Positions 27,422-62,211 of a stretch of 64,000 nt of DNA are shown here, piece after piece. This DNA comes from Promethearchaeota archaeon (GTDB lineage Archaea; Asgardarchaeota; Lokiarchaeia; Sigyniarchaeales; SOKP01): the NCBI GenBank assembly GCA_019057795.1, contig JAHLWS010000070.1, positions 1-64,000 of the forward strand, given 5' to 3'. The notes under the pieces were generated by a model that was not told the DNA's origin, searched no databases, and saw only the letters and a list, made by a program, of their open reading frames with translations. How positions within the stretch are numbered: the first letter of the stretch is position 1; every line of letters begins with the position of its first letter. The position numbers and the translations under genes were made by a program.

Positions 27422-28631
27422 ATGGTAATTAAAAAAGTTGGAATTTTAACGGGCGGCGGAGCCATGTTCAAGACTTTTCTTGACTGCCGTACACTGCCCC
27501 GGGTTAAATAGTGTAATTTATGGGATAATGTTAAAAGCCTACGATGCCGGTATAGAATGTGTTGGGATTCTTAAAGGTTGGAAAGGATTTGTGGAGAACT
27601 TAACTATCCCTCTAAATATCGCCGAACATGATGATTTACACACAGTTGGAGGTACAATATTATATACCAGTAGAACCAATCCTTTTAAAGGAGTTGATTC
27701 GAAAGAAGAAAAAGCAAAAGAATTAGCAAAGAAATTTGATGAATTAGGTATTGATGCACTTATCGCTATCGGTGGAGATTTAAAACGGTTTACATTTTAA
27801 ACCTAAAACGATACTTTAAGTGTTGCGGATGCTATGTGCAAATACTCAAAAGCGAATGTAATTGGCTGTCCAAAAACGATAGACAATGACTTGTTTGGGA
27901 CCCATTACACGTTCGGATTTTGGAGTTCGACGCAATTAGCTTCTAATGCAATGGACAATCTCACCACAACAGCTCGTTCGCATCAGCGGGTTTTTATAGT
28001 TGAAATAATGGGGAGAGATGCAGGATTTCTTACAATGTATAGTGGAATTTCTGCTGGTGCCGATATAATATTAATTCCTGAAACACCGTTTAGTTTAGAA
28101 AAGGATGTTATTGACGTGCTTAAAAAAAGAGTCAATGCAGGGTACAAATATCACATAATTGCCACCTCAGAAGGAGCTTATCCAAATTCAGAGTCGTTGA
28201 ACAAGGATTTTAAAACGATATCAAAAGAAACGATAGATAAATTACCTAAGGATACATACGGAAACCCGTTGCTTGTAAAATTGAATATATCCAAAATAAT
28301 TGTTGAAGAACTCAACTTAAGAGAAGATTTGAAAAAGGAATTTCAGAATAATGGTGTGGATTTTGAGTGTAGAAGCGTAGTCCTGGGCCACACAATGCGA
28401 GCAGGAACTCCTAATTGTTTTGATCGTATATTAGGATTAAGGTTTGGTTTAGCTGCAATGAAATTGGTTTTAAACAAAGACTTTGGTTATATGGTTTCGC
28501 TCCAAGGAACTAAAATAGAGAAGGTTCCCTTAGCTGAAGGTGTTAAAAAGAAGTATATAACATTTGATAATGATAAAATGGAATTACGAGACCTATTAGT
28601 GAAAATTAGATATTTATCGAAACAAAATTAA
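27422..28631 (+). CDS. pfkA: PfkA-family 6-phosphofructokinase (PPi-type signature), spliced: join(27422..27461,27493..27777,27808..28631), 382 aa
   Basis: Spliced product reads MVIKKVGILTGGG-D-CPGLN ... GGTILYTSR ... IGG-D-DTL ... PKTIDND ... EIMGRDAG ... LGHTMRAG. The two inserts fold as BHB or relaxed BHB. Confidence 0.88.
27462..27492 (+). other. BHB pre-mRNA intron 1 in pfk (31 nt)
   Basis: Central helix GCGG/CCGT, bulges AG|C and AC|A, inner stem CA/TG plus TCAAGA/TCTTGA. Removal restores GGA GAC TGC CCC GGG. Confidence 0.85.
27778..27807 (+). other. Relaxed BHB pre-mRNA intron 2 in pfk (30 nt, contains in-frame stops)
   Basis: Outer stem ATCG/CGAT, inner stem TTTAAAA/TTTTAAA, central GTGG/CCTA (2 of 4 paired), bulges AG|A and AA|A. 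Removal restores GGA GAC GAT ACT. Confidence 0.75.
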
Positions 28632-59179: not shown

Positions 59180-59572
59180 ATGAAAATCATATCTCTTCAA
59201 ATTAGCGATGACTTGTTAGATAGGTTTGAAAAAGTTCGAAATCAGAGCGGATTTAATTCAAAAAGCGAAGCATTAAGAGATTCAATAATAAAATTCATTG
59301 AAAACTATGAAAAATTTGAAAATTTAGAAGGATATCGAATTATGAATATAAATCTTGTCTATCCATTTAAAGAACCTATTGCGGATGAAATTTCTGAACT
59401 TTATCACCAATTCCACGCCATAATCAAGGCCGTTACTGATTGGAGAATTGCAGAAAAAAAAATTGAAATTGTTTTAGTAGTAGGAGAATTCGGAATTATT
59501 AAGGATCTTTACAAAGCGATTGTTAAGATTAAAGACATAATAAGCTCAATCCACGAAGTTATAATCGATTAA
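59180..59572 (+). CDS. CopG/NikR-like RHH transcription regulator
   Basis: IISLQISDDLL...SKSEALRDSI plus an ACT-like C-terminal domain. Confidence 0.8.
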   Translation: MKIISLQISDDLLDRFEKVRNQSGFNSKSEALRDSIIKFIENYEKFENLEGYRIMNINLVYPFKEPIADEISELYHQFHAIIKAVTDWRIAEKKIEIVLVVGEFGIIKDLYKAIVKIKDIISSIHEVIID

Positions 59573-59583
59573 TTAATTCACAT

Positions 59584-60438
59584 TTAATCAAATCGAAGTG
59601 AAAAATCTACAAATTCAGTAGGTTTTTGCGTAAGCACGCTTGTACTTATTATATCGGGCTCGGAAATTAAATAATCAACTATGTTATCTTGCGTAATATT
59701 TCCCGAAACTTCAATAGTGACATTTTCGCGTAAATCATGTTTTTTTAGTAAGTTAATCGCATCTTGTACGCTATCAGGATTCATATTATCTAACATTATT
59801 ATATCTGCTCCGTTTTGTACAGCAATTAAAACATCCTCAACTTTTTCCACTTCAACTTCTATCTTTTTTGTAAAACTAACGTTGTTTTTCACATTTTTGA
59901 GAAGTTCTGCGACATTTCCGTTATAAAATTTTAAGTGTGTTGACTTTAAAAGCACCATATCATCTAAGTTAAAACGATGCGTATCTCCTTTTCCAAAATC
60001 TACAGCTTTTTTTTCAAATAATCGTAAACCGGGAAGGGTCTTTCTAGTACATGCTATTTTAACTATTTTTCCGGATTTTTCAATTATCTTAACAAATTTA
60101 CGCGTTGTTGAGGTAATTGCGCTCATATGGCTCATAAGATTTAAACCCACTCTTTCGCCTAACAAGATATCTTTAGTTTTTCCACGTAATTCTACTATTA
60201 CATCTCCATTTTGGATTTGATCGCCATCTTCTTTCTTGAGAGTAACGGCAATACCTAAAACATGAAATAATATCTCGATTTCTTCGATACCCGATAAATA
60301 CCCGTCACTTTTAGCAATAATCTTGGCGGACGAAATCGAATCCTTAGGGATTGATTTTGAGCTAATATCAATAAACATACAATCTTCGTGCAAAAACTCC
60401 CTTATTTTTTTTTCAATTAAAATGCGATTAAAACTCAT
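59584..60438 (-). CDS. nadC: Nicotinate-nucleotide pyrophosphorylase (QPRTase)
   Basis: ER..LN, TRKTLPGLR..EK.AV, HR, EVEV, IMLDNM, E.SG. Confidence 0.95.
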   Translation of the reverse strand: MSFNRILIEKKIREFLHEDCMFIDISSKSIPKDSISSAKIIAKSDGYLSGIEEIEILFHVLGIAVTLKKEDGDQIQNGDVIVELRGKTKDILLGERVGLNLMSHMSAITSTTRKFVKIIEKSGKIVKIACTRKTLPGLRLFEKKAVDFGKGDTHRFNLDDMVLLKSTHLKFYNGNVAELLKNVKNNVSFTKKIEVEVEKVEDVLIAVQNGADIIMLDNMNPDSVQDAINLLKKHDLRENVTIEVSGNITQDNIVDYLISEPDIISTSVLTQKPTEFVDFSLRFD

Positions 60439-60494
60439 TTTTACCAGATTCTTTAAGCAGTATTATTATTATAGATTAAACACTAATTAAAATT

Positions 60495-61169
60495 ATGCAT
60501 GGCATTGATAAAATAATTATTGAAACTAATGAAATTAGGCTTGAAGCCGAGTTTTTTCAGTTGAGTACAAATATTTCTCAGTCAGTTGTTTTAATTTGTC
60601 ACCCACATCCTCAATTTTTCTGGGTTTAAAGCCCTAAAAAGGGAAAATATGGGGGCAATCTGTATAACAATGTCGTATCTGGCGTTTTTAATATGTGCGT
60701 TCAAAATAAGATTTCATGTTTGCGGTTTAATTTCAGGGGAGTAGGAAGTTCGACTGGAAGTCATACTAGTGGAAATGGCGAGTTAAGCGATGTGAAAGCT
60801 TGTATTGATTTTTTAATAAACGAGAAAAACATTGAAAAAATAATAATCTGTGGTTATTCCTACGGCGCCGCTATCGGGTGTTCTGTTGTAAATTTTTCTG
60901 AGAAAATAATTGGCTATTGTGCGATTTCTTTTCCTTGGGATTTCATGGGCTCAAAATATAAGAAACTTTCTCAAACTAAAAAACCAAAATTGTTTATTCA
61001 AGGGAATCGAGATACTATTGCGCTCTATGAAAATTTTGAAAACCATTATAATTTCTATTTCGAACCAAAAAAATATAAGATTATTAATGGAGCTGACCAC
61101 TTTTACTCGGGATTTGAAGAAAATATCGCACAAGAAGTAAGCGAATTCTACAATTCGATTACAAAATAA
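60495..61169 (+). CDS. Alpha/beta hydrolase, spliced: join(60495..60613,60647..61169), 213 aa
   Basis: Spliced product reads VLICHPHPQ-YGGNLYNNVV, RFNFRGVG.S, GYSYG, QG.RD, GADHF. Confidence 0.88.
60614..60646 (+). other. BHB pre-mRNA intron (33 nt, contains in-frame TAA)
   Basis: Central helix TCCT/GGGA, bulges CA|A and AA|A, inner stem TTTTT/AAAAA plus GGGT/GCCC, outer stem CCCACA/TATGGG. Confidence 0.87.
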
Positions 61170-61173
61170 GATA

Positions 61174-62211
61174 TTATGAGATTTTTAATAAAACTTTTCC
61201 AAATTGTTTTCCTTCATTCAAATAGTTCTCAGCGTCTACAACCAGTTCTAGTGGAAATATTTTATCTACAATTGGTTTTAATTTGTTTTCAAAAATTAAT
61301 TTCATTACTTCCCTAAACTCTCTTTGGTTACTCATAGTAGAACCTATAACTTTTAGTTGTTTCCAAAAGATTTGGCGAATGTCAATTTCAGTTATTGGGC
61401 CTGTTGTGGCTCCTGGAGTAACTAAACGCCCTCCAGGCTTTAACAAGCGTAAACTGTTTTGAAACGTAAGTTTTCCAATACTATCAACTACGACATCAAC
61501 TCCATGTCTTTTCGTTATTTCAGTAAAGACATATTTACCGAAGTTGGGATTATCTCTATAGTTGATTACATAATCAGCACCTAACTCTTTTGCTTTTTTA
61601 ATTTTTTCAGAATTACTAGTAGTAGTTATGACCGTTGCTCCTAAAAACTTAGCAATCTGAATTGCCGCAGTAGACACACCACCACCAGCTCCATGGATAA
61701 GGATAAATTCTCCATGAAGTAGATTAGCTTGGGTAGTTAAAAGCCTCCACGCAGTTAGAAAGGTCAAAGGAGCTGCTGCAGCTAACATAAGAGATAAATT
61801 ATCTGGTATTTTTATTACATTTTCTTCTGGAACCTTAAAAAATTCGCAATAAGTCCCCCATTGATGTTCCCCCATTATTGAAAAACTCTTGCAAAAGTTT
61901 TGATTTCCGGACAAACAAAACTGACATTTTCCACAGCTTAATCCAGGGTTAATAGTTACTCTCTCTCCTTCGCTTACAGTCGTTACAGCAGACCCAACTT
62001 CTTTTATTATTCCACTTCCGTCGCTTCCTAAAATATGGGGCATTTTTATATTTAAACCTGTCCAACCTTTAATTAGAAAAACATCAATATGGTTTAAAGC
62101 TCCAAATTTTGTTTGAATTAATACTTCGTTTGGTTTTAATTTAGGAATATCAAGATTTCCAATTATTAATTGGTCTAAATCACCGTGATTTTTAATGAAG
62201 GCTGCTTTCAT
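61174..62211 (-). CDS. Zinc-binding alcohol dehydrogenase / quinone oxidoreductase family
   Basis: PHILGSDGSG, CGKCQFC....C, GAGGGV, FGKV; likely start at MKAAFI. Confidence 0.9.
   Translation of the reverse strand: MKAAFIKNHGDLDQLIIGNLDIPKLKPNEVLIQTKFGALNHIDVFLIKGWTGLNIKMPHILGSDGSGIIKEVGSAVTTVSEGERVTINPGLSCGKCQFCLSGNQNFCKSFSIMGEHQWGTYCEFFKVPEENVIKIPDNLSLMLAAAAPLTFLTAWRLLTTQANLLHGEFILIHGAGGGVSTAAIQIAKFLGATVITTTSNSEKIKKAKELGADYVINYRDNPNFGKYVFTEITKRHGVDVVVDSIGKLTFQNSLRLLKPGGRLVTPGATTGPITEIDIRQIFWKQLKVIGSTMSNQREFREVMKLIFENKLKPIVDKIFPLELVVDAENYLNEGKQFGKVLLKIS

What the first reader, a model, noticed from the sequence alone, without database searches (positions are those of the whole stretch)
60614..60646. 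Near-canonical BHB intron in an alpha/beta-hydrolase mRNA
The 33-nt insert in HPHPQ|YGG has all four central pairs (TCCT/GGGA), two 3-nt bulges, a 5-bp inner stem and an exon-exon outer stem. It carries an in-frame TAA, so the ORF caller missed the 40-codon first exon (ATG 60495). It lies 33 kb from pfk and has an unrelated sequence, so it is an independent example of the same phenomenon.
Basis: partly seen in the sequence, partly recalled or inferred. Interest (0 to 1): 0.85.

Follow-up and report, generated by a model that had tools for sequence, protein, structure and literature searches.

The report
tRNA-type mini-intron in Asgard hydrolase mRNA
A 33-base insert that breaks an alpha/beta-hydrolase gene of a Loki-type Asgard archaeon has the shape, cut sites and evolutionary behaviour of an intron removed from the mRNA by the tRNA-splicing enzyme. 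In the papers I could search, that kind of splicing is documented for only two archaeal protein genes.

Summary
Bases 60614-60646 (33 nt, in-frame TAA) sit between HPHPQ and YGG of an Abhydrolase_11 gene. More than 100 homologues read HPHPQYGGNMYNNVV without a break.

The RNA can fold as a strict bulge-helix-bulge: a 4-bp helix UCCU/GGGA, 3-nt bulges CAA and AAA, an inner hairpin and an exon-exon outer helix. Cutting after the second base of each bulge restores a 213-aa protein.

The same site is interrupted in 25 of 39 species of the genus and in 45 distinct sequence variants, 30-34 nt long.
- Eight variants have frame-breaking lengths.
- All 37 in-frame-length variants carry a stop.
- Every variant restores the motif when cut at the predicted sites.

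Compensatory changes occur in the inner stem and at synonymous exon sites of the outer helix. Exon 1 is as constrained as in intron-free relatives.

The genome encodes an alpha/beta EndA pair and RtcB. No RNA data cover the junction, so splicing is inferred, not seen.

This is a new member of a known kind (cbf5-type pre-mRNA BHB intron) in a new lineage and gene. The scan had already noted the same insert in another genome, and similar introns elsewhere in this one.

The parts
60495..60613 (+). Exon 1 of the alpha/beta-hydrolase gene (39 codons plus 2 nt, ending ...CHPHP + CA of Gln)
   Evidence: It aligns to the N-termini of 212-aa homologues. The frame is open, with an ATG, in every interrupted orthologue for which the spliced CDS was built. 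dN/dS is 0.34 against 0.29 for the same region in intron-free relatives.
60614..60646 (+). 33-nt BHB intron: third base of bulge 1, inner hairpin, 3' strand of the central helix, first two bases of bulge 2
   Evidence: Sequence reading and fold. It coincides with the alignment gap. It is conserved at the same site in 25 species and 45 sequence variants.
60627..60629 (+). In-frame TAA inside the intron (hairpin loop)
   Evidence: All 37 variants of in-frame length carry an in-frame stop.
60647..61169 (+). Exon 2 (A of the Gln codon, YGGNLYNNVV..., GYSYG nucleophile motif, Asp and His motifs, stop 61167-61169)
   Evidence: Pfam Abhydrolase_11 and Abhydrolase_1 hits. Alignment A1. dN/dS is 0.15.
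60608..60611 (+). Central helix, 5' strand UCCU (in exon 1)
   Evidence: Pairs with 60641-60644. Invariant in all 22 variants that were not selected by this motif.
60612..60614 (+). Bulge 1 (CAA); predicted 5' cut after 60613
   Evidence: BHB geometry. The first bulge base is G in one species, giving HPHPEYGG after splicing.
60615..60640 (+). Inner helix and loop (h'): UUUUU/AAAAA plus GGGUU/AGCCC
   Evidence: Covariation: inner pair 4 is UA 19, UG 9, CG 17 with none unpaired among 45 variants. 0 of 500 shuffles reach the observed covariation score.
60641..60644 (+). Central helix, 3' strand GGGA (in the intron)
   Evidence: Invariant non-coding bases, although synonymous sites are saturated between clades.
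60645..60647 (+). Bulge 2 (AAA); predicted 3' cut after 60646
   Evidence: BHB geometry. The third base is A or G, giving CAA or CAG (both Gln) after splicing.
60596..60607 (+). Outer helix, 5' strand (exon 1)
   Evidence: Pairs with 60648-60658. Synonymous-site covariation: Pro CCA/CCG with Tyr UAU/UAC, and His CAC/CAU with Gly GGG/GGA.
60648..60658 (+). Outer helix, 3' strand (exon 2)
   Evidence: As for the 5' strand.

Best explanation
The gene 60495-61169 encodes one 213-aa alpha/beta hydrolase (Abhydrolase_11 family). Its pre-mRNA carries a 33-nt archaeal bulge-helix-bulge intron at 60614-60646.

Proposed mechanism, all inferred rather than observed:
1. The transcript folds locally into an hBHBh' motif built partly from exon sequence.
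2. The genome's heterotetramer-type splicing endonuclease (a catalytic alpha subunit plus a beta subunit that lacks the catalytic His) cuts after the second base of each 3-nt bulge.
3. RtcB joins the exons, giving CAU CCU CA|A UAU GGG, that is HPHPQYGG.
4. Only the spliced mRNA can be translated into the enzyme.

The intron was probably gained once within this Asgard genus and lost precisely several times.

Shown here: the anatomy, the exact fit to the alignment gap, conservation and covariation, selection on both exons, and the presence of the enzymes. Inferred: that cleavage and ligation actually occur, and which enzymes perform them.
For: 1. Position. The 11-codon gap falls exactly between HPHP(Q) and YGG against more than 100 uninterrupted 212-aa homologues.

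2. Shape. All 22 variants taken from genomes fold as strict hBHBh', 2-5 kcal/mol above the minimum-energy fold.

3. Frame.
- Variants are 30, 31, 32, 33 and 34 nt long.
- 8 of the 45 variants have frame-breaking lengths.
- All 37 variants of in-frame length carry a stop.
- Cutting at the BHB sites restores Q(Y/F)GGxMxNNV in every variant, and gives 208-225-aa proteins in the orthologues whose CDS was built.

4. Covariation.
- 91% of cells are paired.
- 5 pairs show double changes, in 17-19 cells.
- 0 of 500 shuffles reach the observed score, and the true register beats all slid registers.
- Synonymous exon sites covary across the intron.

5. Selection on the intron. The intronic GGGA and AA are invariant, while dS between clades exceeds 1.

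6. Selection on the exons. Exon 1 dN/dS is 0.34 (0.29 in intron-free relatives). Exon 2 is 0.15 (0.17 in intron-free relatives).

7. No start codon for exon 2. The window's own copy has CTG where relatives have the Met of GGNMYNN, so exon 2 has no conserved start.

8. Machinery.
- There are two EndA paralogues.
- One keeps the catalytic His and the K-P-R of the specificity loop, and is nearest to the A. pernix alpha subunit 3p1z_B.
- The other lacks the His.
- RtcB is encoded on the same contig.
- Asgard EndA is reported as the (alpha-beta)2 type with the L1 loop (PMC5829648), and that loop confers broad substrate specificity (PMC3241643).

9. Distribution. 25 of 39 species of the genus carry the intron and 14 lack it. 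Their junctions match the predicted spliced sequence, and the gene tree needs at least 3 changes.
Against: - No RNA evidence. The only RNA-like runs that hold part of the locus do not cover the junction, and are probably DNA.
- The minimum-energy fold is not the exact BHB; the BHB conformer is 2.1 kcal/mol higher.
- One central pair is a G-U wobble, and the outer helix has a C-A mismatch next to its closing pair.
- BHB-like motifs of this quality are common in this AT-rich genome: about 12,500 per strand against about 10,000 in shuffled sequence. The motif alone therefore proves little; the weight rests on position, frame and covariation.
- The 23 variants fetched with a motif pattern cannot test conservation of the core, because the pattern required it.
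Confidence: 0.86

Rival explanations
1. The gene is dead or split. An old 33-nt insertion with a stop inactivated the hydrolase, or left two separately translated pieces, and nothing is spliced.
For: Gene callers split it into a 44-aa and a 158-179-aa ORF. No transcript data are available.
Against: - Every interrupted orthologue examined, down to 58% identity with dS above 1, keeps both exons open, with no other visible lesion.
- dN/dS of exon 1 and exon 2 equals that of intron-free relatives.
- The chance that 39 random codons stay open at this base composition is 0.04 per lineage.
- Exon 2 has no conserved start codon: CTG in the window and ATG in relatives.
- The break lies inside the most conserved motif of the family.
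- Intronic bases and exon synonymous sites covary to keep an RNA structure, which a dead insertion would not do.
Confidence: 0.05
2. The insert is skipped or read by the ribosome: translational bypassing of the T4 gene 60 type, or stop-codon read-through that yields an 11-aa loop.
For: A hairpin follows the last exon-1 codon, and the mature protein sequence would be the same after a hop.
Against: - Read-through is excluded as a general explanation. The stops are TAA, TGA or TAG in different species, and 8 variants (31, 32 and 34 nt) shift the frame.
- Bypassing needs matched take-off and landing codons. Take-off would be CAA, but the landing triplet is AAA or AAG, and no stop directly follows the take-off codon.
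- Hopping does not explain the invariant GGGA-AA core, the two 3-nt bulges, or the exon-exon covariation.
Confidence: 0.03
3. The RNA is processed at this structure, but not by EndA and RtcB, or the cut is not followed by ligation. Examples are regulated mRNA decay, as with yeast TSEN targets, or another nuclease.
For: Enzyme identity is inferred only. Eukaryotic TSEN cleaves some mRNAs without splicing them (PMC10485636).
Against: Cleavage without ligation would leave no way to make the conserved protein, yet both exons are under purifying selection. The geometry is the strict EndA substrate, and both enzymes are encoded.
Confidence: 0.05

Closest known systems
BHB intron in the cbf5 (pseudouridine synthase) pre-mRNA of Crenarchaeota (Watanabe 2002; Yoshinari 2006; Yokobori 2009, PMC2738675)
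   Same: A short BHB-type intron inside a protein-coding gene. The host has a hetero-oligomeric (alpha-beta)2 splicing endonuclease. Gain and secondary losses are lineage-specific. Gene callers miss or truncate the gene.
   Different: The gene is a metabolic alpha/beta hydrolase, not an RNA-modification enzyme. The lineage is Asgard, not Crenarchaeota. The motif here is a strict hBHBh', whereas the cbf5 motif is described as more relaxed (PMC10485636). Splicing of cbf5 was shown experimentally; here it is inferred.
EndA-processed mRNA HVO_1309 of Haloferax volcanii (PMC7714728, as summarised in PMC10485636)
   Same: An mRNA that carries a BHB cut by the tRNA splicing endonuclease, with the spliced product seen in RNA-seq.
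   Different: The host is a euryarchaeon with an alpha2-type enzyme, and the gene is unrelated. I did not read the details of where that intron sits relative to the coding frame.
BHB introns of Asgard tRNA genes (bioRxiv 10.64898/2026.10.13.758758; PMC5829648)
   Same: The same motif and presumably the same enzymes. Repeated gains and losses occur within Asgard lineages, and the enzyme is the (alpha-beta)2 EndA with the L1/CSL loop.
   Different: Here the host RNA is an mRNA, and the outer helix is made of coding sequence, so it is constrained at synonymous sites. That preprint does not mention mRNA at all; it uses 'protein-coding' only for genes neighbouring tRNA loci.
IRE1/RtcB unconventional splicing of HAC1/XBP1 mRNA in eukaryotes
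   Same: Protein-enzyme (not spliceosomal) removal of a short structured intron from an mRNA, which changes what is translated. In animals the ligation is by RtcB.
   Different: The nuclease (IRE1) and its recognition motif differ. A regulated, stress-dependent role is shown there; nothing is known about regulation here.

Membership tests
Archaeal bulge-helix-bulge (EndA-type) intron | 4-bp central helix flanked by two 3-nt bulges on opposite strands | tested here: met
   UCCU/GGGA (one G-U) with bulges CAA and AAA. The core is invariant in 22 variants that were not selected by the motif.
Archaeal bulge-helix-bulge (EndA-type) intron | Flanking helices h (outer) and h' (inner) complete the strict hBHBh' form | tested here: met
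   The inner helix is 5 bp plus 5 bp. The outer exon-exon helix has 10 pairs with two interruptions. Both helices show compensatory changes.
Archaeal bulge-helix-bulge (EndA-type) intron | Cutting after the second base of each bulge yields the functional mature sequence | tested here: met
   It restores HPHPQYGG and a 213-aa protein, and does so in all variants of 30-34 nt. The cut position is not resolvable closer than +/-1 nt from the mature sequence.
Archaeal bulge-helix-bulge (EndA-type) intron | Host encodes the splicing endonuclease and an RtcB-type ligase | tested here: met
   Two PF01974 genes: an alpha subunit with His and K-P-R, and a beta subunit without His. One PF01139 RtcB gene.
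Archaeal bulge-helix-bulge (EndA-type) intron | Spliced RNA, excised or circular intron, or in vitro cleavage observed | not testable with these tools
   No listed run is on record as RNA, and the two RNA-like runs do not cover 60436-60741.
Functional interrupted gene (pre-mRNA intron rather than pseudogene) | Both exons under purifying selection and free of other lesions across species | tested here: met
   dN/dS is 0.34 and 0.15, equal to intron-free relatives at 0.29 and 0.17. Open frames in every orthologue whose CDS was built.
Programmed translational bypassing (T4 gene 60 type) | Matched take-off and landing codons, with a stop directly after take-off | tested here: not met
   Take-off would be CAA and landing AAA or AAG. 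The next codon is UUU, not a stop.
Abhydrolase_11 / COG2945-like alpha/beta hydrolases (PF20408) | Pfam match above the curated cut-off, plus the HPHPxxGG, G-x-S-x-G, Asp and His motifs | tested here: met
   PF20408 scores 34.4 bits against a cut-off of 27. GYSYG, QGNRD and GADHF are conserved. The nearest solved structure is 3trd, E 1e-29, found with the intron-free homologue P0004. The substrate is unknown.

The most novel reading that the evidence does not exclude
This intron may be one of a population of EndA/RtcB-spliced introns in ordinary protein-coding genes of Loki-type Asgard archaea. That would mean routine enzymatic mRNA splicing, with ongoing intron gain and precise loss, in the closest archaeal relatives of eukaryotes.

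No unspliced variant can be translated through: each has either a stop or a frame-breaking length. Splicing could therefore act as an obligatory, possibly regulated, gate on expression.

What I checked myself is limited to two further inserts, in pfk in this window, and only at the level of sequence. The other cases come from unchecked notes of the scan.
Probability: 0.55. Interest if true: 0.9.

Novelty: new member of a known kind. Interest (0 to 1): 0.75.

Why it matters
In the papers I could search, tRNA-type splicing of archaeal mRNAs is documented for two genes only: cbf5 in Crenarchaeota and HVO_1309 in Haloferax. A 2023 review expects more to be found (PMC10485636).

This case matters for four reasons.
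- It is comparatively well supported: 25 species and 45 sequence variants.
- It lies in an ordinary metabolic gene of an Asgard archaeon.
- It shows presence and absence within one genus, and precise losses that match the predicted spliced junction.
- It shows that standard gene callers truncate such genes. The nearest database proteins are 169-179 aa instead of about 212 aa.

It also offers a small, well-defined substrate for testing whether Asgard EndA and RtcB splice mRNAs.

Tried and rejected
- **RNA evidence.** The look-up of sequencing runs listed no holder on record as RNA. The two RNA-like cold-seep runs (X19, X20) cover only the flanks, not 60436-60741, and are flagged as probably DNA. 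Nothing can be said on expression.
- **Exact spliced junction in metagenome contigs.** A 27-mer search found 0 hits. So there is no cDNA-like or intron-free allele of this clade in that collection.
- **De novo genome-wide scan.** I searched for a BHB motif plus an 'ORF-restoring' excision.
  - The motif is common: about 12,500 hits per strand against about 10,000 in shuffled sequence.
  - 1.2% of hits are ORF-restoring, the same as random segments.
  - This crude test cannot count mRNA introns. A homology-based scan is needed.
- **Rfam.** Nothing meaningful in 60300-61300.
- **Intron as a repeated or mobile element.** No second copy exists in the genome.
- **Rival readings.** Read-through, bypassing and pseudogene readings were rejected for the reasons given under the rival explanations.
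- **Literature.** Five searches for Asgard mRNA BHB introns found none. The library lacks most subscription journals, so this is not proof of absence.

Full report
**What is there**

The window is contig C70:1-64000 of a 4.95-Mb, 87-contig, 31% GC genome. The nearest named proteins come from Promethearchaeota, Hodarchaeota and other Asgard MAGs.

From ATG 60495 a frame runs to a TAA at 60627-60629. It continues in the same frame to the stop at 61167-61169. Read through, the product matches Abhydrolase_11 (PF20408, 34.4 bits against a cut-off of 27) and Abhydrolase_1. The nearest solved relative, found with the intron-free homologue P0004, is the uncharacterised hydrolase 3trd.

More than 100 homologues of about 212 aa read CHPHPQYGGNMYNNVV without interruption. 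The window has 11 extra codons exactly between HPHPQ and YGG. The closest database proteins (93-76% identity) are called as N-terminally truncated ORFs of 169-179 aa. Their contigs carry the same insert.

**Anatomy**

| Element | Coordinates | Sequence |
|---|---|---|
| Outer helix | 60596-60607 with 60648-60658 | exon-exon pairing, two mismatches |
| Central helix | 60608-11 with 60641-44 | UCCU / GGGA (U-A, C-G, C-G, U-G) |
| Bulge 1 | 60612-14 | CAA |
| Bulge 2 | 60645-47 | AAA |
| Inner hairpin | 60615-60640 | UUUUU/AAAAA plus GGGUU/AGCCC |

The two bulges lie on opposite strands, as a BHB requires.

The position of the cut follows from the canonical tRNA case. An intron at 37/38 with the anticodon stem as outer helix puts the cut after the second base of each bulge; this is my reasoning from the standard tRNA numbering. 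The intron is then 60614-60646, and the junction reads CAU CCU CA|A UAU GGG, that is HPHPQYGG. Exon 1 (119 nt) plus exon 2 (520 nt) give 213 codons.

Because the bulges are CAA and AAA, a cut shifted by one base on both sides gives the same mRNA. The mature sequence therefore does not fix the cut more closely than that.

RNAfold's minimum-energy structure has the same topology but pairs only CC/GG of the central helix. The exact BHB conformer is 2.1 kcal/mol higher.

**Is it more than chance?**

BHB-like motifs are frequent in this AT-rich genome: about 12,500 per strand against about 10,000 in shuffled sequence. That is about 4e-5 per position and length. The motif alone therefore proves little. 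A fit exactly at the two edges of an independently defined alignment gap has a chance of roughly 1e-4.

**Comparative evidence**

Distribution within the genus:
- 39 of the 42 species genomes held for the genus have the orthologue.
- 25 carry an insert at exactly this site; I read each one.
- 14 do not. I read eight of these and inferred the other six from match span and the absence of stops.
- Order-level relatives are all uninterrupted.

A motif search of metagenome contigs added 45 contigs from many samples. Together these give 45 distinct sequence variants of the 53-57-nt BHB block.

| Intron length | Variants |
|---|---|
| 30 nt | 4 |
| 31 nt | 5 |
| 32 nt | 2 |
| 33 nt | 33 |
| 34 nt | 1 |

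- The eight variants of 31, 32 or 34 nt would shift the frame.
- All 37 variants of 30 or 33 nt contain an in-frame TAA, TGA or TAG.
- So no variant can be translated through. Yet every one gives Q(Y/F)GGxMxNNV when cut at the BHB sites.
- Every orthologue whose full CDS I built gives a 208-225-aa protein.

This excludes read-through and a tolerated loop insertion.

**Covariation**

The analysis used the 22 variants obtained without any motif filter.
- 91% of cells pair.
- Five pairs show changes on both sides, in 19 cells.
- No shuffle of 500 reaches the observed covariation score or paired fraction.
- The true register beats all slid registers.

The clearest pair is inner pair 4: UA 19, UG 9, CG 17, none unpaired, over 45 variants.

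The outer helix is coding sequence on both strands, and it covaries at synonymous sites.
- Pro CCA/CCG pairs with Tyr UAU/UAC, giving A-U, G-U or G-C.
- His CAC/CAU pairs with Gly GGG/GGA, giving C-G or U-A.
- This helix is not perfect in all species.

The intronic GGGA and the two bulge A's never change, although synonymous divergence between clades is saturated (dS above 1). Non-coding bases are thus under selection for the BHB core. The 23 variants fetched by pattern cannot be used for that last point, because the pattern required the core.

**The gene is alive and exon 1 belongs to it**

| Region | dN/dS, intron-bearing orthologues | dN/dS, intron-free genus members |
|---|---|---|
| Exon 1 | 0.34 | 0.29 |
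| Exon 2 | 0.15 | 0.17 |

- A 39-codon frame stays open by chance with probability 0.04 at this base composition. It is open, with an ATG, in all orthologues built.
- In the window the Met of GGNMYNN is CTG (Leu). A free-standing exon-2 protein would therefore have to start at 60693, and would lose the invariant NNVVS block.

**History**

- On a maximum-likelihood tree of the spliced proteins, intron presence needs five changes. Well-supported branches force at least three.
- All introns share the core and similar stems. One gain in the genus followed by several precise losses is therefore the simplest reading.
- The intron-free junctions match the predicted spliced sequence: CCU CAA UUU GG in G018, sister to the 30-nt-intron species.
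- This is a gene tree, not a species tree.

**Machinery**

The genome has two EndA-family genes of about 200 aa.
- The C69 protein is most similar to the catalytic alpha subunit of the A. pernix heterotetramer (3p1z_B, E 4e-34). It keeps the catalytic His, which aligns with the residue mutated in 3ajv_B. It also keeps the K-P-R that aligns with K44/R46 of the Crenarchaea-specific loop.
- That loop confers broad substrate specificity (PMC3241643).
- The C74 protein keeps the Tyr and Lys but has no His at the catalytic position, as expected for a structural beta subunit.
- Published work places (alpha-beta)2 EndA with this L1 loop in Asgard archaea (PMC5829648).
- RtcB lies on the same contig at 112485-113792.

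**What is missing**

There is no transcript evidence. No listed run is on record as RNA, and the two RNA-like runs do not cover the site. The DNA runs confirm the insert in the source sample and in an independent study. Splicing, and the identity of the enzymes, are therefore inferences.

**Rivals**

- Pseudogene or split gene: contradicted by selection on both exons, the missing start codon for exon 2, and selection on the RNA structure.
- Read-through: contradicted by three different stop codons and by frame-breaking lengths.
- Ribosomal bypassing: no matched take-off and landing codons, and it does not explain the BHB core.
- Cleavage without ligation: would leave the conserved protein unmade.

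**Comparison with what is known**

This works like the cbf5 pre-mRNA intron of Crenarchaeota, including lineage-specific gain and loss (PMC2738675) and a host with a hetero-oligomeric EndA. It meets every sequence-level criterion of a BHB intron that I could test.

A 2023 review counts two archaeal genes spliced this way, cbf5 and HVO_1309, and expects more (PMC10485636). Five literature searches found no report of BHB introns in Asgard protein-coding genes. The October 2026 preprint on Asgard tRNA introns does not mention mRNA.

I class the finding as a new member of a known kind, in a new lineage and a new type of gene.

**Context from the scan**

Earlier notes list the same 33-nt insert in the orthologue of another genome, and further candidate mRNA BHB introns in this genome: rpl11, a membrane protein, pfk, thiolase, cobO, fwdB, elf1 and GH38. 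These are unchecked AI notes.

I looked only at pfk in this window. There, a 31-nt insert splits GGG|DCPGLN and a 30-nt insert splits IGGD|DTL. My own crude genome-wide scan could not count such introns.

Noticed in passing
window 27462-27492 and 27778-27807: The phosphofructokinase gene (ATG 27422, main ORF to 28631) is broken twice. A 31-nt frame-shifting insert lies between GILTGGG and DCPGLN. A 30-nt insert with an in-frame TAA lies between AIGGD and DTLSVA. Removing them restores both PFK motifs. I did not check BHB structure or orthologues.
   Followed up: partly
whole genome G000 (aragorn): ARAGORN finds only 18 tRNA genes in a 4.95-Mb genome estimated 100% complete, and 10 of them have introns. 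Some calls are odd (Pyl, Stop). Most tRNA genes are probably too interrupted to be detected, in line with the 2026 preprint on Asgard tRNA introns.
   Followed up: no
45 intron variants (L001-L092): Every one of the 37 intron variants whose length is a multiple of three carries an in-frame stop (TAA, TGA or TAG, at different codons). This is more than AT-richness alone would suggest. It may reflect selection against translating unspliced mRNA, or shared descent; I did not test this statistically.
   Followed up: partly
window 60665-60667: The window's own copy has CTG (Leu) where all relatives have the Met of GGNMYNNVV. Gene callers use that ATG as the false start of the truncated ORF in relatives. 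Here the called ORF starts still later, at 60693.
   Followed up: yes
G010 (C12:524-1153 and C72:11827-12438): One species of the genus has two intron-free copies of the hydrolase. Paralogy could confuse the gain and loss count on the gene tree.
   Followed up: no
window 59180-60438 and loci L001-L003: The neighbourhood is conserved: a NikR/RHH-like gene, then nadC (quinolinate phosphoribosyltransferase, minus strand), then the hydrolase. The hydrolase is a single-gene unit, sitting between a divergent and a convergent neighbour. An AT-rich TATA-like stretch lies about 20-35 nt before ATG 60495, which would suggest a short or absent leader.
   Followed up: no
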